DNA of 64,000 nt, taken from the NCBI GenBank assembly GCA_902524345.1, contig CABZCX010000003.1, forward strand, positions 39,504 to 103,503, given 5' to 3'. Source of the stretch: an uncultured Pelagibacteraceae bacterium. Its GTDB lineage: Bacteria; Pseudomonadota; Alphaproteobacteria; Pelagibacterales; Pelagibacteraceae. Positions 3,372 through 61,796 of the stretch are shown here, one piece after another. Numbering within the stretch: the first letter of the stretch is position 1; each line of letters starts with the position of its first letter. The position numbers were made by a program, and so were the translations under genes. The notes beneath the pieces are model-generated. The model worked only from the letters and a program-made list of their open reading frames with translations, was not told where the DNA came from and searched no databases.

Positions 3372-3734
3372 TTATTTTTTATCCAATGGGTGATTTTGAC
3401 CATCATTTACTGGAACATCCTTCATTTCAAAAGTGTTTATTTCATCAACACACCCAACATTAAATCCTGTCATAGCTGGATTAATTCTTGGATTGTGATG
3501 AGTATAAATTCCACACTCAGAACAAAAATAATGTTTAGCAACTTTTGAATGAAATTGATAAAGTTTTAATTTATCTTGACCTTTAATAATTTTGAAATCT
3601 TCATTTTTTACCATCGACATAATTGCTCCTTTTCTTTTACAAATAGAACAATTACATTTTATTACTTTAGCTAAATCTCCATCTAAATTTATTTCTGCTT
3701 CAACAGCTCCACAATGACAAACAAGTTTTTTCAT
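3372..3734 (-). CDS. GFA/CENP-V family zinc protein
   Basis: CHCG, CNCSIC and HYFCSECG cysteine motifs. Confidence 0.9.
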   Translation of the reverse strand: MKKLVCHCGAVEAEINLDGDLAKVIKCNCSICKRKGAIMSMVKNEDFKIIKGQDKLKLYQFHSKVAKHYFCSECGIYTHHNPRINPAMTGFNVGCVDEINTFEMKDVPVNDGQNHPLDKK

Positions 3735-3851
3735 TTTAATATAAAATTAAACTATCCTTGGTTGAAGTTATCCACAAGCATACAAAATATAGTTTTGATG
3801 TTCACGTTTTGATTCACTTTTGATTCAATTACGGACTCAAAATACAACCTC

Positions 3852-3880
3852 TTGCGTGCATTGTATAAATGGGCTATAAA
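3852..3880 (+). promoter_or_regulatory. Sigma70-type promoter of umuDC
   Basis: TTGCGT (3852-3857), 17 bp spacer, TATAAA (3875-3880). Confidence 0.65.
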
Positions 3881-3883
3881 TTA

Positions 3884-3898
3884 GAACAAAACAAGAAC
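3884..3898 (+). promoter_or_regulatory. LexA (SOS) box GAAC-N7-GAAC immediately before umuD
   Basis: GAACAAAACAAGAAC abuts ATG at 3899; matches the alphaproteobacterial consensus. Confidence 0.85.
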
Positions 3899-4294
3899 AT
3901 GAAACTAACTATTCCCTATTATCTGCATAAAGCTGGTGCTGGTTTCCCATCACCTGCCACTGATTATATCGAAGAAGATATCGATCTAAACATGCATCTA
4001 ATCAAAAACGTTCCGGCTACTTTTATTATCAGAGTACAAGGAAAATCCATGGTGGATGTTGGGATCAATGATGGAGACTTATTAGTTGTCGATAAAAGTT
4101 TAAAACCAAAAAATTTTTCAACCGTTATTGCGAATGTTCATGATGAGCTTGTGGTTAAAACTTTAGTTCAAGAGAGAGACAAAAAATTTTTATCGTCTGG
4201 GTCTAAAAATTTTTCAGACAGAATTTTAATTAACGAAGAAGAAGATGTTTTTATTTGGGGGGTTGTGACGTATGTCATCCATTCAACGTACTAA
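3899..4294 (+). CDS. umuD: UmuD, S24 autoproteolytic subunit of DNA polymerase V
   Basis: AGAGFPSPATDY cleavage region, catalytic Ser (GKSM) and Lys (VVKT). Start moved from 3869 to 3899 because 3869 lies inside the promoter spacer. Confidence 0.92.
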   Translation: MKLTIPYYLHKAGAGFPSPATDYIEEDIDLNMHLIKNVPATFIIRVQGKSMVDVGINDGDLLVVDKSLKPKNFSTVIANVHDELVVKTLVQERDKKFLSSGSKNFSDRILINEEEDVFIWGVVTYVIHSTY

Positions 4295-5552
4295 AAAAAT
4301 AGGCTTAGTTGATTGTAATTCTTTCTATGTTTCATGTGAAAGATTATTTAATCCAAAAATAAGAAAAAAACCTGTGGTTGTTTTATCCAATAATGATGGT
4401 TGTATCATTTCTAGATCTAATGAAGCAAAAGCGTTGGGGATCAAGATGGGTGAACCTTATTTTAAAGCAAAAAATATTATTGTTAAAAATAAAGTTGAAG
4501 TTTTTTCATCAAATTATTCGTTATACGGAGATTTATCTAGAAGAGTAATGAGAACTCTTAAAAGGTTTAATACCGAAATAGAGGTTTATTCAATCGATGA
4601 GGCATTTATAGATTTATCTAATTTTCCAGACTCAGAAGTTGAAAAGGTTGGAAGGGAAATTAGACAAACAGTTCTGCAATGGACTGGAATTCCAACAAGT
4701 ATCGGTATCGCTAAAACCAAAACATTGAGTAAAGTTGCAAATCATATCGCAAAGAAAAAACAATCAGGAGTAACGAGTTTAATTGGTATAGAAAATTTGG
4801 ATCCAATTTTAGAAAAATTTGAAATTAATGATGTATGGGGTGTCGGTAGACAACTTACAAAATTTTATCAAAAGAATGGCATCTATAATGCCAAACAACT
4901 TAAAAATAAGTCTAATACTTGGATTAAAAAATGTTCTAATGTTTTGAGCTCAAGAACTGCAATGGAACTTAGAGGAGTTCCTTGTATTGACTTAGAGACT
5001 ACACAAACAAAAAGGAAAAGTTGTGTCGTTTCAAGATCATTTGGTAAAAGAATAGAAAGTTTTCAAGAATTAAAGGAAGCAGTTGCTAATTATTGTTTGA
5101 ACGCTTCTGAAAAAATTAGATCAGAGTCTTTAGTTGCAAAAGCGATTACAGTATTTGTTAGAACCAGTCCTTTTCAAAGAGATTATGGATATTATTCAAA
5201 TTCAAAAACTGTCGACTTTCCAATTGCAACTAACAATAGTCTTGAGACTGTTAAAACTGCAATCGCAATACTTGAGAGTATATTTAGGAACGGCTGTCGT
5301 TATCAAAAAGCAGGAGTTATGCTTACAGGATTACGAGATGATGATGGTAGGAAAAATTTATTCTCATCAGAAAAAGATGAAAAAATAAAAACTTTGATGC
5401 AATCAATTGATAATACTAATTATAGATATGGTAGATCAACCTTAAGTCTTGCAAGTGCTGGAGTTCATAAAAAATGGAATATGAGAAGACAATATTCTTC
5501 TAAAATAGATACCGCTGATTTTTATTGTTTGCCAACAATCAAAGCTATTTAA
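4272..5552 (+). CDS. umuC: UmuC, Y-family DNA polymerase V
   Basis: LVDCNSFYVSCER, VLSNNDGC, YSIDEAF motifs and C-terminal W-x-MRR tail; overlaps umuD. Confidence 0.95.
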   Translation: MSSIQRTKKIGLVDCNSFYVSCERLFNPKIRKKPVVVLSNNDGCIISRSNEAKALGIKMGEPYFKAKNIIVKNKVEVFSSNYSLYGDLSRRVMRTLKRFNTEIEVYSIDEAFIDLSNFPDSEVEKVGREIRQTVLQWTGIPTSIGIAKTKTLSKVANHIAKKKQSGVTSLIGIENLDPILEKFEINDVWGVGRQLTKFYQKNGIYNAKQLKNKSNTWIKKCSNVLSSRTAMELRGVPCIDLETTQTKRKSCVVSRSFGKRIESFQELKEAVANYCLNASEKIRSESLVAKAITVFVRTSPFQRDYGYYSNSKTVDFPIATNNSLETVKTAIAILESIFRNGCRYQKAGVMLTGLRDDDGRKNLFSSEKDEKIKTLMQSIDNTNYRYGRSTLSLASAGVHKKWNMRRQYSSKIDTADFYCLPTIKAI

Positions 5553-6735
5553 CAAAATGGCAATTTGGTTCAACAACTGTCCATGATGAAGTGCCAAATT
5601 TTCTTTTTGAAATATTTTCAAAATTCAAAACTATTTTAGCTTGGTAACTGTTAAGATTACTACTATCTGACGACCATTGCTGAAGTCTTTTGATATTTTC
5701 ATGATCTGGAAACCGAGTTGCATAAGCATAAAGCCAGCCCCAATTACTCCCTTGTCTTCCATCAAGATCTTGCATTTTATAATTTTTTGCAGGTCCAGGT
5801 GCTTTCATTTCTTTGGCGTATTTAAAAACTATTTCGTTATTTTCAGTAAAATCGATGAAAAACTTAACAATATTATGAAAGTTTTTGCCTTTATATTCAT
5901 AGTCCCAAATATTATAGCCCTGGTTTTCCACAATAATTGCAATGACTGTTAAAGCATTCATTGCTCTTGCTTGGTAAAACATTGCTCTACCACCTCTTCT
6001 AGTTTCAATAGGTAAACTACCATCTTTTCTTTGATACCGAATTGTGGCTTCATAATTTTTAAAAGCTTTTTTAAAAAGCTTATTATCATTTAGCAGGACA
6101 CCCAACTGCATATGACTTATTGCAGATGACAGTGCATGGTTATGAGCTCTTTTAGGAACGCCTCTTGCTTGAGTACCATCTTTGTAGGTCATGTCATACA
6201 TAAGATGTTTGTTTTTCTTTACTATCTTTTTAAACCAATCTTTAATTATCTTATCCTCATTAGTTGCGATATCTATCACTTGTTTTGCAAAAGAATAACC
6301 AGCCATCATGGGTGAAGCCACCCATAAATTTACGGTTAGAGTATCATTCCAATGTCTACCCTCATGATCTGATGGACCGGTTCTTTTTGCTGCATCTGCT
6401 TTAGCCCATTCCAAAATAATCTTTTTTACATTTTCACACGCTTCAACACTACCCCCACCACATGGACGTTTAAAATTTTCAAATCTTTGTAACGCTCTAT
6501 TAAACCTATTATCTAATCCATAACCTTTAGGAGCTTTAACTTCTGAAATAGGTGTAACTGGATTAGTCATGGGATTGGAATACATTTTCGTCATACATCT
6601 ATTTGGATTTTTTGAAACTGGAAAAATAATTTCAGGATTATTTATTTTTGCTTTTTTCTTAATTTCTTTAAAATTCGAAAAAGACGGTGTACAAAATAAC
6701 AAATAAACTAATGTTGCAGAAATTATCCTAAACAT
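5545..6735 (-). CDS. Secreted alginate-lyase-like protein (PL5/AlgL-like fold)
   Basis: Signal-peptide-like N-terminus; AHNHA (compare AlgL NNHSY) and QRKDGSLPIETRRGGRAMFYQ (compare AlgL G-x-LP-x-E-x-x-R-x-x-RA-x-x-YH). Confidence 0.7.
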   Translation of the reverse strand: MFRIISATLVYLLFCTPSFSNFKEIKKKAKINNPEIIFPVSKNPNRCMTKMYSNPMTNPVTPISEVKAPKGYGLDNRFNRALQRFENFKRPCGGGSVEACENVKKIILEWAKADAAKRTGPSDHEGRHWNDTLTVNLWVASPMMAGYSFAKQVIDIATNEDKIIKDWFKKIVKKNKHLMYDMTYKDGTQARGVPKRAHNHALSSAISHMQLGVLLNDNKLFKKAFKNYEATIRYQRKDGSLPIETRRGGRAMFYQARAMNALTVIAIIVENQGYNIWDYEYKGKNFHNIVKFFIDFTENNEIVFKYAKEMKAPGPAKNYKMQDLDGRQGSNWGWLYAYATRFPDHENIKRLQQWSSDSSNLNSYQAKIVLNFENISKRKFGTSSWTVVEPNCHFVK

Positions 6736-9422
6736 TATCCAGTATTTTTCATTGCTGCAGCAATTCCTGCTATTGAAGTCAACAAAGTATCATTCAAATA
6801 TTCTTTATCTTTTTTATTTTTAATAGTCTTAATTTTTTTTATCGCGATAGGCTGAACTATGTTCAAAACTTCAGAATAAATATTTCTTACACCTATTGAT
6901 GTTCTAAATTGTTTTCTTGCAGCAATTATTTCTTTAGGCGTAATTTTTTTATTTAATTTTTTTATAACATCAAATTGAAATCTAAGTTTTTTTCCAACTC
7001 TCTTTAAACTTTCATCTGCTAAATGTTCTTCGTAAATTTTTGATATTTCAGGATCTGCTTTAGTAATCACCATATCTAATATATCAAGCATTGAATTAAA
7101 AAACGGCCAGTTTCTCTCCATGTCAAATAAAGTTTTTCTAAATTGTTTTATATATGAATATCTTAAAGCTTCTGCACTTCCAAGCCATGCAGGCAGCATA
7201 AGTCTAACTTGTGTCCAAGCAAACACCCAAGGGATTGCTCTTAAACTTTTTATAGTATCAATGTTTTTTCTTTTTGAGGGCCTTGAACCTATTGAAAGTT
7301 TACCAAGAGCTTTATGGGGCGTAACAGTTTCAAAGTATTTTATAAAATCAGAACTTTGATTAATATTTTTTCTATAAGAATTTTTTGATATCTCTGACAT
7401 TTTTTCAATTAACGATCTCCAACTAGCTTTTGGAACAGGTGATGGTTTTAAGGTGGCTTCAGTCACTGCACCTATGTAACTACATAAATTATATTTTGCT
7501 AAAGGTTCATAACCATATTTTTGTTGAATTACTTCACCTTGGTCGGTTATTCTTATTTTTCCTCTAACAGAGTTTGGAGGTTGTGATCTCAAAGTTGATT
7601 GAATCGGGCCACCTCCTCGTCCAGGAGATCCACCTCTTCCATGAAAAAAAGTTACGTTAATATTATATTTTTTACTTAATTTAATTATTTCCTCTTGAGC
7701 TTTATACTGATGCCAACTTGCACAAATTTTGCCTGCGTCTTTACTTGAATCTGAATAACCAATCATGACCTCCTGCTCATTTTTGATAACTTTTCTGTAC
7801 CATGATTGAGAAAACAATTTCTCCATTATATCTTTAGCATTAATTAAATCATCTAAAGTCTCAAATAATGGGACTACTCTTAACTTGTTTTTAATATTGG
7901 CTTCTTTTTGTAAAAATATTACAGATAACAAATCTGAAGCTGAATTAGTCATTGATATTACATAAGCTCCGAGACATTCACTAGGTTCGTTGGCCAAAAT
8001 TTTAAAAGTTGACCAAACTTCTTTATTTTCTCTATTTGAAAATTGAAATTTGTTTAATTGATTTTTTTTAGAGAGTATTTGTTTCTTTAAAAATTCAATT
8101 TTTTCGATTTCACTAAATTTTAAATAATTTTTTTTATATTTCTTTTTAACATATTCACTAATTACCTGACTGTGTCTTGAGGACTCTTGTCTTATATCTA
8201 ATCTTGCAAGATTAATACCAAAACACTTTGCCCTTCGCATCAAGTCTAATAATTCGCCACTAGCAAGATTTTCATTTTGATTTTGTTCTAAAGATTCTCT
8301 TACAGCTCTTAAAGGCTTTAATATCTCCTCTCGAGAACTCAATAAATTATTGTGATCTAGAGCTTTTTTATTTACAAGGTGTTGTTCTATCGATCTATGT
8401 GTGATCCTCATTTTATCTCTTAGAGGCCTTAAAAAAACTCTATAAGGCTCAAAAGATGTCCCTACACTTTTAAGAATTTTTTTTGAACATTTTTCCATAG
8501 AATAAGATCTTATTATTTTGGTAAGTGCTTTCTCGTACAACTTTGCAGCTTCCCACCTTGATAGTAAAATTACTTTTCTGGTGACATCAGCTGTAACATT
8601 TGGGTTACCATCGCGATCCCCTCCCATCCAAGATCCAAATTCAATAGGATTAAAATTTTTTGGCAAACCTTTGTTCATGTTCTGCACAAAAATTGAATTT
8701 AATCTTCTATAAACTTTTGGAATTGTATCCCACAAACTATCTTCAATTATTGCAAGTCCCCATCTTGCTTCATCGAATGGAGATGGTTTAATTCTTTTTA
8801 AATCATCCGTATTCCAAATAATAGTTAGCTCATCAAAAAGTTTTTTTTCTAAAACTGCTAATTTTGATGGAAAATTTTTAAGCAAATCTCTTTGTTCAAG
8901 AATTTCAATAATATTATGATATTTTTGAATAAGGGTTCTTCTCTTTACCTCAGTTGGGTGTGCAGTTAACACAATTCCAATTTTTAGGTTTTTAGCGGTA
9001 TTGTATATTTTTGTTTCTGAAATTTTTTTATTTCTAAAGAGATCCTCAAATATTTCCTCTATAAATATGTTGTTGTTTGAAGTTTTCTTATTACTATTTT
9101 CATATTCATTAAGCTTTCTAGAAGCATCAATTAAATCAGCCAAATTTATAAAATTCATAAAATGTGTGAATGCTCTAGTTAATTTAAATGAATTTTTTGG
9201 GCTCAGTTTTTTAATTGCTTTAATTACTGTTTGATTAGTTTGATTATTTTTAGAATTTATTTTGTTAGCTTTTGATAATTTTCTAACTTTTTCAACTAAT
9301 TCAAAAAACTTTTGACCTTCTTGTTCTTTGATAACTCTACCTAAAATATTACCCAGATATTTAACATTTTCCCTGAAAAATCTAGTTGGTATACGCTCAT
9401 AATATAGATCTCTTTTTTTCAT
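6735..9422 (-). CDS. ppc: Phosphoenolpyruvate carboxylase
   Basis: LTAHPTE, SWMGGDRDGNP, MIGYSDSSKDAG, FHGRGGSPGRGGGP, SLRAIPWVF motifs. Confidence 0.98.
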   Translation of the reverse strand: MKKRDLYYERIPTRFFRENVKYLGNILGRVIKEQEGQKFFELVEKVRKLSKANKINSKNNQTNQTVIKAIKKLSPKNSFKLTRAFTHFMNFINLADLIDASRKLNEYENSNKKTSNNNIFIEEIFEDLFRNKKISETKIYNTAKNLKIGIVLTAHPTEVKRRTLIQKYHNIIEILEQRDLLKNFPSKLAVLEKKLFDELTIIWNTDDLKRIKPSPFDEARWGLAIIEDSLWDTIPKVYRRLNSIFVQNMNKGLPKNFNPIEFGSWMGGDRDGNPNVTADVTRKVILLSRWEAAKLYEKALTKIIRSYSMEKCSKKILKSVGTSFEPYRVFLRPLRDKMRITHRSIEQHLVNKKALDHNNLLSSREEILKPLRAVRESLEQNQNENLASGELLDLMRRAKCFGINLARLDIRQESSRHSQVISEYVKKKYKKNYLKFSEIEKIEFLKKQILSKKNQLNKFQFSNRENKEVWSTFKILANEPSECLGAYVISMTNSASDLLSVIFLQKEANIKNKLRVVPLFETLDDLINAKDIMEKLFSQSWYRKVIKNEQEVMIGYSDSSKDAGKICASWHQYKAQEEIIKLSKKYNINVTFFHGRGGSPGRGGGPIQSTLRSQPPNSVRGKIRITDQGEVIQQKYGYEPLAKYNLCSYIGAVTEATLKPSPVPKASWRSLIEKMSEISKNSYRKNINQSSDFIKYFETVTPHKALGKLSIGSRPSKRKNIDTIKSLRAIPWVFAWTQVRLMLPAWLGSAEALRYSYIKQFRKTLFDMERNWPFFNSMLDILDMVITKADPEISKIYEEHLADESLKRVGKKLRFQFDVIKKLNKKITPKEIIAARKQFRTSIGVRNIYSEVLNIVQPIAIKKIKTIKNKKDKEYLNDTLLTSIAGIAAAMKNTG

Positions 9423-10288
9423 TTAATATTATCTATGCTCTCTATTTGGCTTAAAGAATTTTTAAATTCATCCATATTTTCTCTCAATGCTAAATTTGAT
9501 ACAGCATAAACTGCTATTAATAAGAGTAGCAAAGGTAATGCCGTTATCACAGAGGCATTACTTTTAATAAGTAAAATATACAAAATTATAAACAATGCAG
9601 AACGTATTAAAAAAGTTTTTTTAAAAACACTGATGATAGATAAAGAATGTTTTACCAGATTCAAAAAACTCATTTTAGATGGTCCAAAATATCTAGTTCC
9701 TCTGATCGACGGTACTTTTATGAAATTTTTTTCTACTTTAGATAAAGAGCCAGAAAAACTATTCCAAGTGGCTTTTTCATTAATCATATTTTCGACTGTC
9801 TTTTTTGGTAAACAAGTAAAGTTTCCAAATTTTATTGATTTGCCAGTAAAAGTTAAAGTTACCAACTTATGTAACTGATAACAAATTTTAAATAATAAGC
9901 TCTCTGATCTTTTTACTCTCTCTCCGACAACCGTAACATTATCTGTATCTTTAATTTGATCTAAAAATTTTTTTATTTCCTCTGGTCTGTCTTCACCGTC
10001 TCCATCCATTGGTATTGCATAGTCAAATTCATCTTTATCCAAAATATATTTTAGTCCAGTCGCTATACATCTTGCATGTCCTTGGTTTTTTTTCATGTTT
10101 AAAATCTTTATAGATTGAATATTATCAAAATTGATTTCCTCATTTGATCGATCATGGTTTGAGGCATCGTTAACAACAATAATAGATATCTCAAAATTTT
10201 TATCTATTTTTAAATTATCAATTTCCTCAAAAAGTTTAAACACTGACTGCCAATCGTTATAAATAGGGATTATAATTTTTACTTTCAT
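9419..10288 (-). CDS. GT2 glycosyltransferase (GtrB/DPM-synthase-like) with C-terminal membrane helices
   Basis: IIIPIYND, VVNDAS, NQGHARCI, MDGDGEDRP motifs; hydrophobic C-terminus. Confidence 0.88.
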   Translation of the reverse strand: MKVKIIIPIYNDWQSVFKLFEEIDNLKIDKNFEISIIVVNDASNHDRSNEEINFDNIQSIKILNMKKNQGHARCIATGLKYILDKDEFDYAIPMDGDGEDRPEEIKKFLDQIKDTDNVTVVGERVKRSESLLFKICYQLHKLVTLTFTGKSIKFGNFTCLPKKTVENMINEKATWNSFSGSLSKVEKNFIKVPSIRGTRYFGPSKMSFLNLVKHSLSIISVFKKTFLIRSALFIILYILLIKSNASVITALPLLLLLIAVYAVSNLALRENMDEFKNSLSQIESIDNIK

Positions 10289-10294
10289 AGTTTT

Positions 10295-11614
10295 TTAATA
10301 TCTCCCTAAACAAATATCATCTAAACAAATAAATTGACTTGATTTATTTAAAATTTCTTTTTTAGTAAACCCTTCCCACCTTGGTCGTGATTTTAAGTGA
10401 TAAGATAAATTGCCTGCCTTCCACTCATCTCCTGTGACAAACTCAATTTCTTTTTCAAAATCCTGTTCCCAAGTAAATTGAACTTTAGCTGCTATCTCCT
10501 TGCCAGGATAATCAGTTCTTTTATCAGTTTTTGTTATAGAAATATATGCGTATAGGCTTGGGGATAAAAAAAACAAAAATAAAAACCCAACTAAAAAAGA
10601 ATTTATCTTTTTAAGATTAATTTGAGATCTAAATAAATAGACAGAAAATATTCCAAGAGGTAAATAAAAAGGTGTCATCCACATCGTTCTAATTTTAGAT
10701 CCTGTAACAACTGAAGTAATAAAAATTAAAAAAATAGGTAAAATACTTATAGATAATAAAAAAAGAAACTTCCTATCATTAAAATTAAATTTAATTTCAA
10801 TTTTTTTTATCAATAGCCACGTTAAAAAGAAAAATGGAATTAGTATTCCAAGTTGTTTAAATAAAAAGATAATTGGATATTTTACATGGTTGAGAATTTC
10901 TGTTTCCTCAAAGCCTGATCTTTTCAAGCCATATAAAACAGTTATAAAATCGTTATCAAGCAACCAAATTATATGTGGAACTAAGAGAACTAAAAAAATT
11001 TCAATTATTATCAAATATTTAAAATCAAAGTTTTTAAATTTTTTATAAATAACATAAATAAATAATAAACTAATTGACAATAATAAATAAACAAACAAAT
11101 ATTTAGAAAGAAAACCAATTGCAGCAAATAATCCAATTAGAAAACAATCATAAAACTGTATTTCTTTTGCATCATATATTTTCCAAGAGTAATAAATAAC
11201 CAATGACCAAAATGGTAACTGACAAACATTTACATTAAACTCTGGAGTTGTGAAATTGAAGAAATAAATAGCCTCTAACAATAAAACTGAAATTAAACTT
11301 AATTTAATATGTCCTAAAATTTCAGAAGCAAATTTGAATATAAAATAGAATGATATAACAACAAAAATTTGACTTAAAAGATAAAAAGCCCAATCTTGAG
11401 AACCAAATATATTATAAAATACCTCAGAAAAAAAAGCGCTCATTGGTGGGTGTTTGTTGAAACCCCAATCTAAATTGCTTCCCCAAGCTAGCGCCTCTAT
11501 TGTATCAAGAGGCAAATTTGAATTTGTCAATGAGGGAATCATTGTCCAAATTATTAAATGTGTAATAGCAAAAATAAAAAATATGTTATTAATATTCTTG
11601 TTTAAAACATTCAT
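10295..11614 (-). CDS. GT39/ArnT-PMT family membrane glycosyltransferase
   Basis: DTIEALAWG..LDWGFNKHPP, EFNVNV, FLSKY motifs, many TM segments; ATG at 11614 preferred over the track start 11680. Confidence 0.85.
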   Translation of the reverse strand: MNVLNKNINNIFFIFAITHLIIWTMIPSLTNSNLPLDTIEALAWGSNLDWGFNKHPPMSAFFSEVFYNIFGSQDWAFYLLSQIFVVISFYFIFKFASEILGHIKLSLISVLLLEAIYFFNFTTPEFNVNVCQLPFWSLVIYYSWKIYDAKEIQFYDCFLIGLFAAIGFLSKYLFVYLLLSISLLFIYVIYKKFKNFDFKYLIIIEIFLVLLVPHIIWLLDNDFITVLYGLKRSGFEETEILNHVKYPIIFLFKQLGILIPFFFLTWLLIKKIEIKFNFNDRKFLFLLSISILPIFLIFITSVVTGSKIRTMWMTPFYLPLGIFSVYLFRSQINLKKINSFLVGFLFLFFLSPSLYAYISITKTDKRTDYPGKEIAAKVQFTWEQDFEKEIEFVTGDEWKAGNLSYHLKSRPRWEGFTKKEILNKSSQFICLDDICLGRY

Positions 11615-11692
11615 AAGTAAATATTTACAATAATTAAGGTTACTTGACACCCATATTTTGCTGAATATACTCCCTCGCATTCAAATTTAGAC

Positions 11693-12217
11693 ATGCCAAA
11701 GATAGCTAAAGCAAAAAAAAAGGTTACTAAAACTAAAGCAAAGAATGTTTCTAAACCAAAAACAAAAGTAGTTATTAAAACAAAAGAAGTCAAAAAAGGA
11801 CCTATAAAAATATCAAAAACCTACATTCCTAAAGATACAGAAAAATACATGTGTGAAAAACACAAAGTTTTTTTCAGAATTAAATTGCAAGAATGGAAAA
11901 AAGAACTTGTAAAATCAAATAACGAAGCTCTCTATAACGGCTCTATGGATGATAATAGTATTTCTGCAGATATTGTCGATCAGGCAAGTTCATATACTGA
12001 TAAAAATGTAGAAATGAAAGCAATCAATAGACAAATAAAACTTATCTCAGAAATTGACAAAGCTTTAGCAAGAATAAGGGAAGATACTTATGGATATTGT
12101 CTTGATACTGCTGAACCGATTGGGCTAAAAAGACTAATGGCAAGACCAGTCGCAAAATATACAATTGCTGCACAAGAAAAACATGAGAAGGACGAAAAGG
12201 TTCACGCAGATGACTAA
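11693..12217 (+). CDS. dksA: RNA polymerase-binding protein DksA with Lys-rich N-terminal extension
   Basis: DIVDQA coiled-coil tip; YGYCLDTAEPIGLKRLMARP C-terminal domain. Confidence 0.95.
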   Translation: MPKIAKAKKKVTKTKAKNVSKPKTKVVIKTKEVKKGPIKISKTYIPKDTEKYMCEKHKVFFRIKLQEWKKELVKSNNEALYNGSMDDNSISADIVDQASSYTDKNVEMKAINRQIKLISEIDKALARIREDTYGYCLDTAEPIGLKRLMARPVAKYTIAAQEKHEKDEKVHADD

Positions 12218-12338
12218 AAGAAAGAAAAAAACAAAAAAAGTGCATAATCCAGTAACTTACAATTTTACTAAAAAATATATTTACTATTATTATGCTCTGT
12301 TCTGGATAATTTTAATATTTTTTGTCTTTAGTAGATGA
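12210..12338 (+). CDS. Small 42-aa membrane protein (below ORF-track cutoff)
   Basis: MTKRKKKTKKVHNPVTYNFTKKYIYYYYALFWIILIFFVFSR; ATG overlaps the dksA stop region; basic N-terminus plus C-terminal hydrophobic helix. Confidence 0.6.
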   Translation: MTKRKKKTKKVHNPVTYNFTKKYIYYYYALFWIILIFFVFSR

Positions 12339-12439
12339 ATCCAAAATTAATTTTAATTATATTAGTAATACTTGCAATAGAAGCATCAGGTCATGGCATT
12401 TTTGCTTCATTATTTAGATTTCTTAACTCGATAAATTAA
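12335..12439 (+). CDS. Small 34-aa membrane/secreted peptide (below ORF-track cutoff)
   Basis: MNPKLILIILVILAIEASGHGIFASLFRFLNSIN; ATGA overlap with the preceding small ORF; stop abuts the convergent GST stop. Confidence 0.6.
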   Translation: MNPKLILIILVILAIEASGHGIFASLFRFLNSIN

Positions 12440-13066
12440 TTATGGCTTGGGTGGTAATTCATTTTTATCCATAAAAGCAAAACCTTTTTTAACACCATCT
12501 CTTTCAGAGATATTCTCGTACCATCTAGTTAAATTTTTAAATTTTTTTAAACCAATGTCATGCCACTCATGTCTAGCAATCCAAGGAAATGTTCCAATAT
12601 CTGCGATTGTATAATTTTCTCCTGATAAATATTTTGATTTTGATAATCTTTCATCTAACTCTCTATATATTCTCTCAGAAATCTTAAAATATCTATCTTC
12701 ACCAAACTTACTTTTCCCCGGATTATAATGATGAAACTGATGATGTTGACCTAGCATTGGACCAACATTGCCCATTTGGGCCATAAGCCATTGATTAATT
12801 TCTAATCTTTCTTCAGAATTATAAAATTTTCCACTTAATTCAGCTAAGTAAATTAAAATTGCCCCAGATTCAAAAACTGTTTTTTTATTTTTATGATCAA
12901 TAATTACAGGAATTTTACTTAATGGACTAATCTTTTTAAAATCTTGTTTGAATTGTTCACCATTATCTAAATCAACTTTGGTTACTTTGTAGTCAAACTT
13001 GATCTCTTCGAGCATAATACTGATTTTTTTTCCATTAGGAGTATTAGCTGAAAAAAGCTCAATCAC
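12440..13066 (-). CDS. Glutathione S-transferase (YfcG/YghU-like)
   Basis: TPNGKK, SPLSKIP, FESGAILIYL, YTIADI motifs. Confidence 0.93.
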   Translation of the reverse strand: MIELFSANTPNGKKISIMLEEIKFDYKVTKVDLDNGEQFKQDFKKISPLSKIPVIIDHKNKKTVFESGAILIYLAELSGKFYNSEERLEINQWLMAQMGNVGPMLGQHHQFHHYNPGKSKFGEDRYFKISERIYRELDERLSKSKYLSGENYTIADIGTFPWIARHEWHDIGLKKFKNLTRWYENISERDGVKKGFAFMDKNELPPKP

Positions 13067-14079
13067 TCTTTTTTACCGAGTCTTTTTAACAAATTTGATG
13101 AAGTAGTCGTGAATTCAAATCGATATTTTTCATTGGGTCTTGCGAGTTTGAAACATGCTCTAGCAGCTAAAGCACCCTCATGGAAACCAGAGAGAATAAG
13201 TTTTAATTTACCAGGATAGTTACAAATGTCTCCAACAGCATAAATACCTTTTTGATTTGTCTCAAATTTCTCTGTATCAACCTCAATAGTTTTTTTATTC
13301 AAATTAAGACCCCAATCAGCAATTGGTCCTAATTGCATTATAAGGCCAAAAAAACCAAGCACATAATCAGACTTTAGGTTTTTAATTTCATTATTGTCGT
13401 GCTTTATATCTATACTTTCTAATTTTTGATCTCCGTGAGCATTTGCCATTTGATATTTAGTAAACAAGTTTATTTTTCCTGATTTTACAAGTTCCCGCAT
13501 TTTATCGACTGATGCTTGAGCTCCTCTAAATTCATCTCGTCTATGTATTAAATTAACTTTACAATCTTTTGATAACTCAATAGCCCAATCTAATGCGCTA
13601 TCTCCACCTCCAAAAATTGATACTGTTTTACCTTTAAATATATCTTTATCTTTTACCGAATAAAATAATGATTTATTTTCAAATTGTTCACATTCCTTTG
13701 GTGCAAATTTTCGAGGTTCAAATGAACCAACTCCCCCAGCAATAATAACATTTGGTGTTAAAAAAGTATTACCACTACTAGTTTTTACTAACCAGTTAGC
13801 ATCTTCTTTCTTAACCTCTTCAACTCTTTCACTTAAATGAAATTTAATGTCAAAAGGCTTTAATTGACTAATTAAATTATTTGTTAATTCCTCTCCTGTA
13901 CACTCAGGTACCGCAGGAATATCATAAATTGGTTTATCAGGATAAAGTTCTATACATTGTCCACCTATTTTATCTAAATTATCAACTATTTCACAATCGA
14001 GCCCAATTAGTTTTAATTGGTGTGCCGTAAATAATCCTGTGGGTCCTGCTCCAATAATTAGTGCATCGGTTTTATTCAT
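13063..14079 (-). CDS. Ferredoxin-NADP+ reductase, thioredoxin-reductase-like type
   Basis: IIGAGPTG, GGQCIELYPDKPIYDIP, GGGDSALDW, GIYAVGD; adjacent to ferredoxin. Confidence 0.9.
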   Translation of the reverse strand: MNKTDALIIGAGPTGLFTAHQLKLIGLDCEIVDNLDKIGGQCIELYPDKPIYDIPAVPECTGEELTNNLISQLKPFDIKFHLSERVEEVKKEDANWLVKTSSGNTFLTPNVIIAGGVGSFEPRKFAPKECEQFENKSLFYSVKDKDIFKGKTVSIFGGGDSALDWAIELSKDCKVNLIHRRDEFRGAQASVDKMRELVKSGKINLFTKYQMANAHGDQKLESIDIKHDNNEIKNLKSDYVLGFFGLIMQLGPIADWGLNLNKKTIEVDTEKFETNQKGIYAVGDICNYPGKLKLILSGFHEGALAARACFKLARPNEKYRFEFTTTSSNLLKRLGKKE

Positions 14080-14400
14080 TTAAGCCTGTTTAGACGGTAT
14101 GTTTACTTCGAGACCATTTATTTCATCTGAAACAATAATTTGGCAACTCAGTCTGCTATTTGTTTTTGGTTCAAATGCCATATCAAGCATATCGTCTTCT
14201 CCGTCTTCTTTTTTTGGTAACTTATTAAACCAGTCTTCTTTGACATAAACATGGCAAGTTGCACATGCCATTCCACCACCACAATCTGCATCTATTCCAG
14301 GTATGTCATTTTGAACTGCACCCTCCATAACTGTTAAGCCATTTTGAACTTCGATTGTATGCTTTTCATTCTCGTGAGTGATGTAAGTGATTTTAGCCAT
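14080..14400 (-). CDS. fdx: 2Fe-2S ferredoxin (adrenodoxin type)
   Basis: [11 protein letters not shown] and SRLSCQ. Confidence 0.95.
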
Positions 14401-14418
14401 TGATATGAATATAGGTGT

Positions 14419-14459
14419 AAAAAAAAATAGGGCAAGTATGTTAAAACATACTCGCCCTA
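14419..14459 (-). terminator. Rho-independent terminator after proteorhodopsin
   Basis: Minus strand TAGGGCGAGTATGTTTTAACATACTTGCCCTA hairpin followed by a T-run (A-run 14419-14427 on +). Confidence 0.85.
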
Positions 14460-14482
14460 TAAATTATAAGTTTAAAGCGTAA

Positions 14483-15259
14483 TTATCTTGCTCTTGCGCC
14501 AGCTCCAGAACTCATTGCTGCAGCCCAGATTACTAGACCAAATGCAATTTTGTTAATGAAGTCAGCTAAGTTGTAAACTACGTTTAATGTGTCAGCATCC
14601 ACTCCACCAGTTAGGTAACCAAATACATAACCTAATGGATAAATTGCCCAACCTACAGTTACAATCATTCTCATTGCACCGAACGCAGTTACAAGAGCTT
14701 TGTTTCCGCTCTTAGCAGCAGCTTTACCTGCTTCACCTGAGAATACTTCATAAAGAATGTATACCCAACCTGCCATACCGATAATGAAACCAAGCGTAGC
14801 GTTGATGTATCCAGCTTCTCCTAAGTATCCACCGATTAACATTACTAATGAACCGATTAACAATCTCCAGAACATTCCAGAGTTTGCTTTTCTTACAGCT
14901 ACTAGAATTAAATAAAATTCTACCATCTGTAATGGCACAGTAATTAACCAGTCAATATATCTATATACTGTTGGTGAGTCACCTGTAGCAACCCATACTT
15001 CTCTCATGTACATGTAGTGAATGAAAGCAATACCAGTTACTAGACCAGCAACAGTTACTGATGTTTTCCACGCAGGGTTAACAGTACCTCTCTCCATGAA
15101 GAAGAAAGCTGTAGCCGCTAACATACCCATTGAAATAATCCAAAAAGATATTCCAACGAAGTCATCCTGAGCTAACATCGTAGCGCTTGCTGCATTAGCA
15201 ATTCCTGTTAAACCTGTTAAGGCAACAGCTGCTAGAGCAAACAGTTTAAGTTTTTTCAT
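14483..15259 (-). CDS. Proteorhodopsin, blue-absorbing DTE proton pump
   Basis: YRYIDWLITVPLQMVE (D97, T101, Q105, E108), H75 in FIHY, Schiff-base Lys in DFINKIAFG. Confidence 0.98.
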   Translation of the reverse strand: MKKLKLFALAAVALTGLTGIANAASATMLAQDDFVGISFWIISMGMLAATAFFFMERGTVNPAWKTSVTVAGLVTGIAFIHYMYMREVWVATGDSPTVYRYIDWLITVPLQMVEFYLILVAVRKANSGMFWRLLIGSLVMLIGGYLGEAGYINATLGFIIGMAGWVYILYEVFSGEAGKAAAKSGNKALVTAFGAMRMIVTVGWAIYPLGYVFGYLTGGVDADTLNVVYNLADFINKIAFGLVIWAAAMSSGAGARAR

Positions 15260-15290
15260 AAAAAACTCCCTCTTTAGTTAGTTTTTACTT

Positions 15291-15326
15291 TTAGTTTATA
15301 TAAACTAAGCTTAGGCTTCCCTAAGC
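15291..15326 (-). promoter_or_regulatory. Two adjacent inverted repeats upstream of proteorhodopsin
   Basis: Perfect 18-bp palindrome TTAGTTTATATAAACTAA (15291-15308) directly followed by GCTTAGG-CTTC-CCTAAGC (15309-15326). Confidence 0.55.
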
Positions 15327-15472
15327 AAAGATTGGGGTTAAATAGCAAATAAAAACAGTTTATTGAAGACTAAAGTGTCATTTATTTACGTTGATTTTAC
15401 TGACTTTTTGAAATTAAATACAATTTATAATTTAATAATCTAAAAAAAAGGCACTATCGAATCAAAAATCAA

Positions 15473-17365
15473 ATGTCCAAGAAATTCAATGAAATATACC
15501 AAGAATCAATAAATAATCCTGAAAGCTTTTGGAGAGATGCATCAGAAAACATCTTCTGGTTTAAAAAACCAAGCAAAATTTTAAACAAATCTAATCCCCC
15601 TTTCTATAAGTGGTACGAAGATGGTGTCACTAACACGTGTTATAATGCTTTGGATTTTCACATTGATCAAGGAAAAGGAGGTAAAACCGCATTAATTTAC
15701 GATAGTCCTATCACCGGAGACAAAAACAAGTTCAGTTATGAAGAATTAAGATCAAAAGTATCTAAATTTGCAGGAGCACTTAAAAATCAAGGGGTCAATA
15801 AAGGTGATCGAGTGATAATTTATATGCCCATGATACCTGAGGCTGTTATAGCAATGCTTGCTTGTGCAAGAATTGGAGCTATTCACTCGGTTGTTTTTGG
15901 TGGATTTGCCTCAAACGAACTTGCAAGCAGAATTGACGACAGTAAAGCAAAACTTTTGGTAACCGCTTCGTGTGGTTTTGAGCCTGGAAGGACTGTTGAA
16001 TACAAGCCTCTAGTAGATGATGCAATAAAACTAGCTAATCACAAGATCAGTAAAATGATTTTGTTTCAAAGGAAAGGTCATGAGGTCAAATTAAATGCTC
16101 CTGTAGAGATCAGCTGGGATGAAGCCCATGCTAACGCTAAGGACACAGATTGTGTAGAAATGAATTCAAACGAATTTGCTTATATTCTTTACACATCAGG
16201 AACAACCGGAACTCCAAAGGGTATCGTTAGAGATATTGGAGGTCACATCGTTGCTTTAAAATGGACTATGAAAAATATTTATAACATTGATGAGAATGAT
16301 ATTTGGTGGTCAGCCAGTGATATTGGTTGGATAGTCGGTCACTCATATATTGTCTACGCTCCGTTATTTAAAGGATGCACAACTGTGCTTTTTGAGGGTA
16401 AGCCTGTCGGTACACCTGATGCCGGAGCTTTTTGGAAAATTATTTCAGACTATAAAGTTAAATCATTATTCACAGCGCCAACAGCTTTTAGAGCAATTAA
16501 AAAAGAAGATCCTGAGGGTAAATTCTTCTCTAAATATGACTTAAGCAAATTTGAGAGTCTTTTTTTAGCTGGTGAGCGTGCTGATCCTGATACAATTAAG
16601 TGGGCTGAAAATTTATTAAAAATTCCAGTAATAGATCATTGGTGGCAAACAGAAACGAGTTGGGCTATTAGTTCAAATTGTACTGGGATTGAAATGATGA
16701 AAACTAAGTACGGTTCAGCTTGTAAAGCAGTACCTGGCTATGATGTGAAAATTATTAAATCAGATCAAACTTTAGCTAAACCAAATGAAATGGGAGATAT
16801 AGTTGTAAAACTTCCATTGCCCCCAGGTACATTTCCAACTCTTTGGAATGCTGATCAAAGATATAAAGAAAACTATATGTCAAACTATGATGGTTATTAT
16901 CAAACTTATGATGCAGGTCATATTGATGAAGATGGATATATATGGATTATGTCTAGAACAGATGACATAATTAATGTTGCAGGTCACAGATTATCAACAG
17001 GTGCAATAGAGGAAGTTTTATCTGAACATCAATCAGTAGCTGAGTGTGCTGTTCTTGGAATTGCCGACAAACTTAAAGGACAATTGCCTATTGGCTTAGT
17101 TGTTTTAAAAGCAGGTGTTGATAAAAGTCACGAAGATATCTCAAAAGAGTGCATACAAATGGTCAGAGAAAAAATTGGTCCAGTTGCTGCATTTAAAATT
17201 GCTATAGTTATCAAAAGATTACCCAAAACTAGATCAGGTAAAATTTTAAGGGGAACAATTAGAAAGATTGCTGATAAAGAAGAATATAAAATGCCTCCAA
17301 CCATTGATGATCCAGCAATTTTAGATGAGATAAAAGCTGATCTGAAAAATAATAATATTCTTTAA
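15473..17365 (+). CDS. prpE: Propionyl-CoA synthetase / acetyl-CoA synthetase family
   Basis: YILYTSGTTGTPKG AMP-binding loop, DHWWQTE, GHRLSTG, LPKTRSGKILR. Confidence 0.85.
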   Translation: MSKKFNEIYQESINNPESFWRDASENIFWFKKPSKILNKSNPPFYKWYEDGVTNTCYNALDFHIDQGKGGKTALIYDSPITGDKNKFSYEELRSKVSKFAGALKNQGVNKGDRVIIYMPMIPEAVIAMLACARIGAIHSVVFGGFASNELASRIDDSKAKLLVTASCGFEPGRTVEYKPLVDDAIKLANHKISKMILFQRKGHEVKLNAPVEISWDEAHANAKDTDCVEMNSNEFAYILYTSGTTGTPKGIVRDIGGHIVALKWTMKNIYNIDENDIWWSASDIGWIVGHSYIVYAPLFKGCTTVLFEGKPVGTPDAGAFWKIISDYKVKSLFTAPTAFRAIKKEDPEGKFFSKYDLSKFESLFLAGERADPDTIKWAENLLKIPVIDHWWQTETSWAISSNCTGIEMMKTKYGSACKAVPGYDVKIIKSDQTLAKPNEMGDIVVKLPLPPGTFPTLWNADQRYKENYMSNYDGYYQTYDAGHIDEDGYIWIMSRTDDIINVAGHRLSTGAIEEVLSEHQSVAECAVLGIADKLKGQLPIGLVVLKAGVDKSHEDISKECIQMVREKIGPVAAFKIAIVIKRLPKTRSGKILRGTIRKIADKEEYKMPPTIDDPAILDEIKADLKNNNIL

Positions 17366-52021: not shown

Positions 52022-52126
52022 TTTTTAAATAAAGTGTCAATAGTAGGTTTTTAATGAAAAATAGGAAATTTCAGCTAACTAAAAAGAAAATTAATACAGG
52101 ATGTTTATTGATAACTGTCTTGAAAA

Positions 52127-52481
52127 AGCCAGATGAACTGTAAGCCGGGTTCTGTCATTTAAATTTACCATTTATCTAGGCTCAAAATCACTCTTGAGCT
52201 CAAGCGACTAACCCTGATGACTAGCCAAGAATTGCTTTTTGTTTTTTAACGTTGTCATCTCTACTTAGTCTTGCTCTCAGTGGGGTTTTCCAGCGTTCAT
52301 TGTTACCAATAGAACCGGTGTGCTCTTACCACACCTTTTCACCCTTGCCATGTTATGGCGGTTTATTTTCTGTGGCACTATCCCTAGGGTTGCCCCCGCC
52401 AGGAATTACCTGGCACTGTATTCTTGTAGAGTCCGGACTTTCCTCTTTAAAAAATTAAAGCGATAAATCGTTCATCTGGCT
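52127..52481 (-). ncRNA. rnpB: RNase P RNA (type A)
   Basis: GAGGAAAGTCCGG and ACAGAACCCGGCTTA conserved elements; terminal AGCCAGATGAAC/GTTCATCTGGCT pairing (P1). Confidence 0.97.
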
Positions 52482-55925: not shown

Positions 55926-56002
55926 TGGTGGGCCCGCCAGGACTCGAACCTGGGACCAATACATTATGAGTGTACTGCTCTAACCAACTGAGCTACAGGC
56001 CC
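55926..56002 (-). tRNA. tRNA-Ile2(CAU), lysidine type
   Basis: GGGCCTGTAGCTCAGTTGG..., anticodon loop CTCATAA, C4/C5 acceptor-stem bases typical of TilS substrates, encoded CCA. Confidence 0.93.
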
Positions 56003-61721: not shown

Positions 61722-61796
61722 TGGTGGGCCGTGTTGGTTACGCTCCAACTACCCCTGCAATGTCAATGCAGTACTCTACTATTGAGCTAACGGCCC
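61722..61796 (-). tRNA. tRNA-Val(GAC) with non-canonical T-loop
   Basis: Complete cloverleaf: GGGCCGT/ACGGCCC acceptor stem, CTGCA-TTGACAT-TGCAG, GTTGG-AGCGTAA-CCAAC, A73 and CCA. Confidence 0.9.

What the first reader, a model, noticed from the sequence alone, without database searches (positions are those of the whole stretch)
5545..6735. Secreted PL5/AlgL-like polysaccharide lyase in a lineage thought to use small molecules
Seen: signal-peptide-like N-terminus; His and Tyr positions matching the AlgL catalytic motifs, but with variants (HNHA for NNHS; FYQ for xYH). No polysaccharide uptake or alg synthesis genes nearby. Inference: it either acts on a uronic-acid polymer other than alginate (own capsule/EPS turnover, shedding from particles or TEP) or is an overlooked exoenzyme.
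Basis: partly seen in the sequence, partly recalled or inferred. Interest (0 to 1): 0.65.

Follow-up and report, generated by a model that had tools for sequence, protein, structure and literature searches.

The report
Exported PL5-type uronate lyase in SAR11
This SAR11 gene encodes an exported enzyme of the alginate-lyase (PL5) fold with an intact catalytic site; such SAR11 genes were already published in 2025, their substrate is still unknown, and here the gene turns out to sit in a swappable "lyase slot" of the genome.

Summary
Window 5545-6735 (-) is a 396-aa ORF with a Sec signal peptide. It matches Pfam Alginate_lyase (E 5e-35). Its confident AlphaFold model matches only PL5 structures best (A1-III, Smlt1473, PanPL, AlgL). 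The catalytic Asn199/His200/Arg247/Tyr254 are invariant in 152 SAR11 orthologs, and dN/dS is about 0.14.

It is not overlooked. PMC11890756 (Sci Rep 2025) describes these 'Ca. Pelagibacter' PL5 homologs, their roughly 10% genome prevalence, their transcripts and a negative correlation with phosphate. It left the substrate and role open.

New here:
- In 32 of 32 loci the gene occupies one fixed slot, abutting umuC at the end of a flexible island that follows a core GT-C/GT2 glycosyltransferase pair.
- In this genome it is translationally coupled to ppc.
- In a near-identical genome the ORF is replaced exactly by a PF14099 lyase plus a phosphatase.
- Other genomes have an empty slot, or multi-lyase, sulfatase and TRAP-transporter clusters.
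- About half of 251 species genomes in the genus carry some lyase of these two families.

Most likely it depolymerises exogenous acidic glycans or their oligomers. Turnover of the cell's own envelope glycan is the main rival. No TonB receptor or KDPG aldolase was found, so the downstream route is unexplained.

The parts
5545..6735 (-). CDS of the PL5-family (alginate-lyase fold) polyuronide lyase. 396 aa; the mature protein is about 376 aa, 43 kDa, pI 9.7.
6676..6735 (-). Codons 1-20: Sec signal peptide with predicted SPase I cleavage after SFS.
   Evidence: Sequence. The same design is conserved in the orthologs. Four invariant Cys (47, 92, 100, 392) fit an oxidising compartment.
6136..6141 (-). 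Codons Asn199-His200 (motif AHNHAL), equivalent to A1-III Asn191-His192.
   Evidence: invariant in 152 orthologs
5974..5997 (-). Codons Arg247 to Tyr254 (RGGRAMFY). Arg247 corresponds to A1-III Arg239 and Tyr254 to the catalytic Tyr246.
6735..9422 (-). ppc (PEP carboxylase, 895 aa). Its TAA stop overlaps the lyase ATG (TAATG), which indicates translational coupling.
   Evidence: ppc lies between GT2 and the lyase in 17 of 32 ortholog loci.
9419..10288 (-). GT2 glycosyltransferase with C-terminal TM helices, of the polyprenyl-phosphate sugar synthase type (closest to ArnC/PpgS). A core gene.
10295..11680 (-). PMT_2 / ArnT-like GT-C glycosyltransferase. A core gene and the first of the array.
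4272..5552 (+). umuC (Y-family polymerase), convergent. Its 3' end overlaps the lyase 3' end by 8 bp. This is the fixed right-hand border of the slot.
3869..4294 (+). umuD (Peptidase_S24).
5547..6727 (.). The swappable segment. Homology to the near-identical genome G135 (94-96% nt identity in the flanks) stops at 6728 and resumes at 5546. In between, G135 carries a PF14099 lyase plus a histidine-phosphatase gene.

Best explanation
The ORF encodes a Sec-exported, probably disulfide-bonded lyase of the PL5 (alpha/alpha)-barrel family. It most likely cleaves 4-linked uronate residues in acidic glycans by beta-elimination. In that mechanism Tyr254 acts as base/acid, and Asn199, His200 and Arg247 neutralise the carboxylate.

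It is an accessory, niche-defining gene. It occupies one fixed slot at the umuC end of a SAR11 flexible island, and here it is co-expressed with ppc through a TAATG overlap.

The most likely role is depolymerisation of exogenous uronate-containing poly- or oligosaccharides (algal or bacterial exopolymers, TEP) at the cell surface or in the periplasm. Other lyase families can fill the same slot.

Shown: the ORF, its export signal, fold, catalytic residues, purifying selection, the slot and the swap.

Inferred: enzymatic activity, substrate class, cellular location and physiological role.
For: Family and fold:
- Pfam PF05426, E 5e-35.
- A family profile against PDB A1-III gives E 7e-21 with the catalytic residues aligned.
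- AF2 model pLDDT 88.6, pTM 0.89.
- The top 24 Foldseek hits are all PL5 structures; the best is 4e1y, E 3.9e-11, TM 0.76.

Constraint:
- N199, H200, E244, R247 and Y254 are invariant in 152 orthologs.
- Median dN/dS is 0.14.
- 36 of 37 genomic orthologs are intact.

Export:
- Signal peptides occur throughout the family.
- Four Cys are invariant across the 56-sequence family alignment and nearly so among 152 SAR11 orthologs (C92 and C100: 151 of 152).

Context favouring exogenous substrates:
- The slot holds other exported lyases instead. G135 has a PF14099 lyase plus a phosphatase as an exact ORF-for-ORF replacement.
- G155 and G177 have a PF14099 lyase next to the PL5 gene.
- G026 and G069 have distant PL5 paralogs in clusters with PF14099 lyases (five in the G026 island, at least two in G069), an SGSH-like sulfatase and a TRAP DctM gene; G026 also has a ROK kinase and the DctQ and DctP genes.
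- In G021 an MFS transporter follows the lyase.
- The rest of the island carries nutrient-acquisition genes such as Amt and TauD, and SBP genes just beyond the G021 lyase.
- The ortholog and PF14099 tend to exclude each other (6 of 37 against 87 of 214, odds ratio 0.28), as alternatives would.

Published: high gene and transcript abundance in the surface ocean (PMC11890756).
Against: - No TonB-dependent receptor was found in G000. A polymer therefore could not reach a periplasmic enzyme.
- No KDPG aldolase (PF01081) was found in five genomes, including carriers and a complete genome. The canonical route from unsaturated uronate to central metabolism is missing.
- No transporter or second lyase lies next to the gene in this genome.
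- A freely released exoenzyme is a poor investment for a dilute planktonic oligotroph (established reasoning, not tested here).
- No enzyme of this subgroup has been assayed.
- The association statistics ignore phylogenetic relatedness.
Confidence: 0.5

Rival explanations
1. AlgL-like housekeeping. The periplasmic lyase trims or clears the cell's own uronic-acid-containing envelope polymer (capsule, EPS or LPS-linked glycan). It would work with the upstream polyprenyl-P-sugar synthase (GT2) and GT-C transferase (PMT_2).
For: - The gene is always downstream of PMT_2 and GT2 on the same strand, with gaps of 0-4 bp or overlaps. It follows GT2 directly in 10 of 32 loci.
- PL5, GT2 and PMT_2 show similar divergence and dN/dS of 0.14-0.16.
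- G000 has a UDP-glucose/GDP-mannose dehydrogenase, so it can make uronate sugar nucleotides.
- There is no TBDT to import polymers and no uronate catabolic aldolase.
- AlgL is a solved periplasmic PL5 precedent (4ozv, 7sa8).
Against: - PMT_2 and GT2 are core genes, present in genomes with an empty slot or with unrelated cassettes. The lyase is found in about 15% of species genomes.
- Unrelated genes (ppc, Amt-SpoIIE, TauD, a serA-like gene) are inserted between GT2 and the lyase.
- No alginate or other polyuronide synthase/export genes lie at the locus. PMC11890756 also found none.
- SAR11 genes are tightly packed everywhere, so adjacency is weak evidence.
- In a near-identical genome the gene is swapped for a different lyase family without any change in the GT genes (97-98% identical).
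Confidence: 0.27
2. Phosphate-stress module. The lyase is part of a low-P adaptation, co-expressed with ppc. It would serve either envelope remodelling towards P-free anionic polymers or access to P-bearing acidic glycans.
For: - PMC11890756 reports negative correlations of gene and transcript abundance with Pi. It also cites a three-fold induction of the HTCC7211 homolog under P limitation (second-hand, original paper not held).
- There is a TAATG overlap with ppc.
- The alternative cassette in G135 pairs a lyase with an exported histidine-phosphatase-family protein.
Against: - The same paper concludes that the pattern reflects population-level selection rather than regulation.
- None of 37 ortholog carriers has PhnJ (C-P lyase), against 10 of 214 others (p = 0.37, no association).
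- ppc occurs in 151 of 251 genomes, mostly without the lyase and at other loci.
- No mechanism links beta-elimination to P gain.
Confidence: 0.13
3. Not a lyase in vivo: a PL5-fold protein that only binds glycans, or that has another chemistry.
For: - No member of this subgroup has been assayed.
- Identity to characterised PL5 enzymes is only about 15-18% in structural alignment.
- The NNHSYW motif reads HNHALS.
- The NCBIfam AlgL equivalog scores are far below their cut-offs (55 bits against 366-743).
Against: - All four catalytic positions plus Glu244 are invariant across 152 orthologs, and N199, E244, R247 and Y254 are invariant (His200 90% or more conserved) in relatives at 25-38% identity. 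That is hard to explain without catalysis.
Confidence: 0.08

Closest known systems
'Ca. Pelagibacter' PL5 homologs, SSN subcluster 2b of PMC11890756 (Sci Rep 2025)
   Same: By description this is the same group: SAR11-assigned PF05426 proteins with the archetypal His, found in a minority of genomes including HTCC7211, with no alginate genes around. The prevalence seen here (37 orthologs in 251 species genomes) is similar to their 266 of 2656.
   Different: I could not map this sequence onto their network, because their supplement is not held. Their main text does not mention signal peptides of these proteins, genomic slot, ppc coupling, lyase swapping or PF14099 partners.
Alginate lyase A1-III, Sphingomonas sp. 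A1 (PL5; PDB 1qaz, 1hv6, 4e1y, 4f13)
   Same: Best sequence and fold match. It has the (alpha/alpha) barrel, and Asn191/His192/Arg239/Tyr246 are all matched.
   Different: - Structural identity is about 15-17%.
- A1-III works in the cytoplasm of an alginate assimilator with a dedicated uptake system (established knowledge). The SAR11 protein has a signal peptide, four conserved Cys, and N- and C-terminal extensions of about 60 and 80 residues.
AlgL, Pseudomonas aeruginosa (periplasmic PL5; PDB 4ozv, 7sa8)
   Same: Sec-exported PL5 enzyme, with a possible periplasmic location.
   Different: - AlgL sits in the alginate biosynthesis operon; no such operon is present here.
- The NCBIfam AlgL equivalogs are not met.
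- The Foldseek match is weaker (E about 1e-6 to 1e-7).
Smlt1473 (Stenotrophomonas maltophilia) and PanPL (Pandoraea apista), PL5 lyases
   Same: PL5 fold and catalytic set. They are stand-alone genes outside alginate operons. The PDB entry describes Smlt1473 as multi-functional, which shows that the fold is not restricted to alginate.
   Different: Only distant similarity (E 4e-4 by sequence, about 1e-7 by fold). Substrate range cannot be transferred.

Membership tests
CAZy PL5 / Pfam PF05426 Alginate_lyase | Significant match to the family profile | tested here: met
   PF05426 scores 121.7 bits against a gathering score of 22.2, covering profile positions 30-273 of 275. The dbCAN PL5 HMM was not available here. 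PMC11890756 found SAR11 homologs with it at E 1e-10 to 1e-15.
CAZy PL5 / Pfam PF05426 Alginate_lyase | (alpha/alpha)n barrel (toroid) fold | tested here: met
   The AF2 model is all-alpha, pLDDT 88.6, pTM 0.89. Foldseek ranks 24 PL5 chains first (TM up to 0.76 normalised to the target), followed by PL38 and PL17.
CAZy PL5 / Pfam PF05426 Alginate_lyase | Catalytic Asn-His, Arg and Tyr (A1-III 191/192/239/246) | tested here: met
   N199/H200/R247/Y254 align to these residues in single-sequence and profile alignments. They are invariant in 152 orthologs.
CAZy PL5 / Pfam PF05426 Alginate_lyase | Literal NNHSYW motif of classical AlgL-type enzymes | tested here: inconclusive
   The motif reads HNHALS. 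The two catalytic residues are kept and the flanking residues differ. A distant SAR11 paralog (G026) keeps NNHS.
CAZy PL5 / Pfam PF05426 Alginate_lyase | Beta-elimination activity on poly-mannuronate or another uronan | not testable with these tools
   This needs an enzyme assay (A235).
AlgL equivalog (NCBIfam NF001466-NF001470) / alginate biosynthesis lyase | Score above the equivalog cut-off | tested here: not met
   The best score is 55.1 bits against a cut-off of 366. The others score 15-37 bits against 429-743.
AlgL equivalog (NCBIfam NF001466-NF001470) / alginate biosynthesis lyase | Location within an alginate biosynthesis operon | tested here: not met
   The neighbours are ppc, GT2, PMT_2 and umuDC. 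This holds in all 32 ortholog loci. PMC11890756 also found no alginate genes.
Polysaccharide utilisation locus (lyase + transporter + catabolic genes) | Co-located uptake and downstream catabolic genes | tested here: not met
   None are present in this window. Neither a TBDT nor Eda was found in G000. The feature is met only for distant paralogs in G026 and G069, which have a sulfatase, TRAP genes and other lyases (ROK kinase in G026).

The most novel reading that the evidence does not exclude
SAR11 genomes keep a dedicated, recombination-prone slot next to umuDC. Exported lyases of unrelated folds for acidic polysaccharides are exchanged there between near-identical genomes: PL5-type, PF14099 jelly-roll type, and in some genomes whole lyase/sulfatase/TRAP clusters.

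About half of the species in the genus carry at least one such lyase. That would mean a large part of the most abundant 'small-molecule' oligotroph attacks polyanionic exopolymers (TEP, algal mucilage, sulfated glycans) directly, or scavenges their oligomers. Lyase choice would be a fine-scale niche axis.
Probability: 0.3. Interest if true: 0.7.

Novelty: already known. Interest (0 to 1): 0.4.

Why it matters
SAR11 is the most abundant heterotroph in the ocean and is modelled as a consumer of low-molecular-weight compounds.

If these exported lyases are active on marine acidic polysaccharides, part of the polysaccharide/TEP pool would be processed by SAR11. Lyase content would then be an ecotype marker.

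The existence of the gene family in SAR11 is published. What remains open, and testable in culturable carriers, is the substrate and the cellular location.

The fixed slot, and the exact swap between lyase families found here, give a concrete handle. Isogenic-like natural pairs exist for comparison: G000 against G135, and the empty-slot genomes.

Tried and rejected
- **Link to C-P lyase / phosphonate use:** PhnJ is in 10 of 251 genomes and in none of the 37 ortholog carriers, so there is no association.
- **Canonical uronate catabolism:** PF01081 (Eda) was not found in five genomes.
- **Polymer import:** no TonB-dependent receptor was found in G000.
- **Phage depolymerase origin:** tblastn against 50,697 phage records gave no match.
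- **Contexts of the nearest non-SAR11 relatives** (30-38% identity, uncultured; one named Chromatiales): three long contigs show no conserved polysaccharide locus. Only one has a DUF1501 neighbour.
- **Promoter/terminator scan:** no more promoter-like sites than in shuffled sequence, and no terminators. It is uninformative.
- **Lipoprotein reading of 'LLFC':** rejected, because the Cys is not conserved in the orthologs.
- **Carini 2014 original data:** the paper is not held. No supplement of PMC11890756 is held either.
- **The core Hepar_II_III_C protein (G000:C1) as a partner exolyase:** it is present in genomes with and without the PL5 gene (4 of the 5 searched) and, in G000, sits next to purH and rpe, so no link is supported.
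Full report
**1. The observation**

Window 5545-6735 (-) is an uninterrupted 396-codon ORF.
- It scores 121.7 bits (E 5e-35) on Pfam PF05426 Alginate_lyase, against a gathering score of 22.2.
- Its best solved relative by sequence is alginate lyase A1-III, E 1e-10 alone and 7e-21 with a 56-sequence family profile.
'FYQ' is F253-Y254-Q255 on Tyr246. Arg247 lies on Arg239 and Glu244 on Glu236.
- The N-terminus is a Sec/SPase I signal. SAR11 orthologs all end the signal with S-[FY]-[AS] followed by [DN]FK. Cys15 is not conserved, so the protein is not a lipoprotein here, whereas several distant relatives have lipoboxes.
- Four cysteines (47, 92, 100, 392) are invariant across the family alignment. 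This fits an exported, disulfide-bonded protein.

The organism is SAR11. An Rfam SAR11_0636 sRNA lies at 3760-3849, orthologs are named Pelagibacterales in a source database, and the genome is 1.08 Mb with about 30% GC.

**2. Fold and constraint**

An AlphaFold2 model built on the 56-sequence alignment is all-alpha, with mean pLDDT 88.6 and pTM 0.89.
- Foldseek against the PDB ranks 24 PL5 chains first: A1-III (E 3.9e-11, TM 0.76 on the target), Smlt1473, PanPL and AlgL. PL38 and PL17 follow.
- In 152 SAR11 orthologs (32 genomic, 120 metagenomic), N199, H200, E244, R247 and Y254 are invariant.
- Median pairwise dN/dS is 0.14, similar to the neighbouring GT2 and PMT_2 genes. umuC is at 0.045.
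- One of 37 genomic orthologs is a pseudogene (G177, two TAA stops).
- The mature protein is about 43 kDa with pI 9.7.
- The NCBIfam AlgL equivalog models are far from met (55 bits against at least 366). It is a PL5-fold enzyme but not an AlgL ortholog.

**3. Prior knowledge**

PMC11890756 (Sci Rep 2025) already covers this gene family.
- It describes PL5 homologs assigned to 'Ca. Pelagibacter': subcluster 2b with the archetypal His, and a separate Lys-variant cluster.
- It models them and reports PF05426 proteins in 266 of 2656 Pelagibacter genomes, including HTCC7211.
- It shows high gene and transcript abundance in the epipelagic ocean and a negative correlation with phosphate.
- It cites a three-fold induction in P-limited HTCC7211.
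- It states that no alginate synthesis or degradation genes were found, so no role could be inferred.

The finding is therefore not 'overlooked'. Substrate and function remain open.

**4. Distribution found here**

In 251 species-representative genomes of the genus, 54 have a PF05426 match. Of these, 37 are orthologs of this gene (E at most 1e-30), about 13 are distant paralogs and 4 are sub-threshold. In a smaller earlier sample, none of 24 genomes of a second family of the order had a match.

**5. The locus**

The gene order here is PMT_2 (ArnT-like GT-C), GT2, ppc, lyase on the minus strand, with overlaps of 4 and 1 bp. It meets convergent umuC-umuD, and the two 3' ends overlap by 8 bp. The GT2 has C-terminal TM helices and is closest to ArnC/PpgS-type polyprenyl-phosphate sugar synthases. 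The ppc stop and the lyase start form TAATG.

Across all 32 ortholog loci examined, the lyase lies downstream of PMT_2 and GT2 at the distal end of the cassette. It abuts umuC in 29 of them; in G021, G244 and G177 other genes follow it. What lies between GT2 and the lyase varies:
- nothing (10 loci);
- ppc (17 loci);
- TauD with an Amt-SpoIIE fusion, or TauD with a PF14099 lyase;
- a DUF1015 / aminotransferase / 2-hydroxyacid-dehydrogenase trio.

Genomes without the lyase have other contents in the same interval:
- DUF1800 + DUF1501 (G013, G024);
- nothing, with ppc directly abutting umuC (G087, G031, G082);
- a roughly 26-kb insert (G026).

PMT_2 and GT2 are present in all of these, so they are core genes and the interval is a flexible island.

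**6. The swap**

G135 is nearly identical to this genome around the locus (94-96% nucleotide identity; ppc 99% and GT2 97% at the protein level).
- Homology stops at window 6728, just inside the lyase start, and resumes at 5546, at its stop.
- In between, G135 has a 276-aa PF14099 'Polysacc_lyase' protein and a 197-aa histidine-phosphatase-family protein. Both have signal peptides.
- So one exported lyase family is replaced ORF-for-ORF by another.

PF14099 lyases also sit next to the PL5 gene in G155 and G177. In G026 and G069, distant PL5 paralogs (24-32% identity; the G026 one has a canonical NNHS) lie in clusters with PF14099 lyases (five in the G026 island, at least two in G069), an SGSH-like sulfatase and a TRAP DctM gene; G026 also has a ROK kinase and the DctQ and DctP genes.

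PF14099 occurs in 93 of 251 genomes, with up to six copies. In total, 126 of 251 genomes have a lyase of one or the other family.
- The ortholog of this gene co-occurs with PF14099 less often than expected (6 of 37 against 87 of 214; Fisher p = 0.005).
- The distant paralogs co-occur with it more often (11 of 13).
- These tests ignore relatedness and are only indicative.

**7. What speaks against simple polysaccharide feeding in this genome**

- No TonB-dependent receptor was found in G000.
- No KDPG aldolase was found in five genomes, including two carriers, the lyase-rich G026 and a complete genome.
- G000 has no PF14099 lyase.
- No transporter lies at the locus.
- G000 does have a UDP-glucose/GDP-mannose dehydrogenase, so it can make uronate sugar nucleotides. 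That keeps an own-polymer role possible.
- A core Hepar_II_III_C protein next to purH is found in four of five genomes searched, with or without the PL5 gene, and gives no link.
- There is no association with C-P lyase.
- There is no phage homolog.
- Contexts of the nearest non-SAR11 relatives are uninformative.

**8. Reading**

- About 0.9: this is a real, exported, catalytically competent PL5-fold enzyme.
- About 0.5: it acts on exogenous acidic glycans or their oligomers. The grounds are its interchangeability with other exported lyases, the catabolic look of the richer clusters, and the nutrient-acquisition character of the island.
- About 0.27: AlgL-like processing of the cell's own uronate-bearing envelope glycan, tied to the upstream GT pair.
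- About 0.13: a phosphate-stress role.
- About 0.08: not a lyase in vivo.

None of these can be settled without an assay.

**9. Verdict**

The gene family in SAR11 is already published. The slot, the swap and the breadth of lyase carriage are additions worth following up.

The look-up of earlier scan notes returned nothing that bears on this gene.

Noticed in passing
L054 (G135:C2) 9967-11422; window 5546/6728 breakpoints: In a near-identical SAR11 genome the PL5 ORF is replaced exactly by a PF14099 Polysacc_lyase gene (276 aa) plus an exported histidine-phosphatase-family gene (197 aa).
   Followed up: yes
L015 (G026:C10) 6875-16769 and L021; L022 (G069:C20) 3470-12247: Some SAR11 genomes carry clusters with PF14099 lyases (five in the G026 island, at least two in G069), a distant PL5 paralog (two in G069), an SGSH-like sulfatase and a TRAP DctM gene; G026 also has a ROK kinase and DctQ/DctP. 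G026 also has FAA-hydrolase and BKACE genes. These look like loci for a sulfated, uronate-containing glycan.
   Followed up: partly
genus-wide: PF14099 'Polysacc_lyase' proteins occur in 93 of 251 species genomes of this SAR11 genus, with up to six copies. In total 126 of 251 genomes have PF14099 and/or PF05426. I did not find this reported in the papers searched.
   Followed up: partly
window 6735-9422 (-): ppc is itself mobile within the genus. It lies inside the GT2-umuC island in 17 of 32 lyase loci and in the empty-slot genomes, and elsewhere in others. It was found in 151 of 251 genomes.
   Followed up: partly
window 3760-3849 (-): Rfam SAR11_0636 sRNA motif (117 bits), between a GFA-family gene and umuD.
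   Followed up: no
window 3869-5552 (+): umuDC is highly conserved (dN/dS 0.045, 87-99% aa identity) and forms the fixed border of the flexible island. Its dS (0.77) is lower than that of the adjacent island genes (about 1.25).
   Followed up: partly
L011 (G019:C3) 10149-12275: A 708-aa fusion of an ammonium transporter with a SpoIIE/PP2C phosphatase domain, followed by a TauD-family dioxygenase. Both sit in the same island, upstream of the lyase.
   Followed up: no
L017 (G013:C1) 6818-9405; L015 3144-5751; L053 6679-7974: A DUF1800 + DUF1501 pair is an alternative cassette at the same slot. In an unrelated metagenomic contig, a DUF1501 gene sits directly upstream of a PF05426 homolog.
   Followed up: no
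G000:C1:207523-208218 (L020 4509-6092, -): A core 527-aa Hepar_II_III_C (PF07940) protein between purH and rpe, found in four of five SAR11 genomes searched whether or not the PL5 gene is present. Its function is unknown.
   Followed up: partly
L050 (G177:C20) about 5435-5962: The PL5 ortholog is interrupted by two TAA stops (pseudogene), with a PF14099 lyase gene immediately downstream.
   Followed up: no
window 52125-52479 (-), 55929-56002 (-), 61725-61796 (-): RNase P RNA and two tRNA genes (Rfam gathering-level hits).
   Followed up: no
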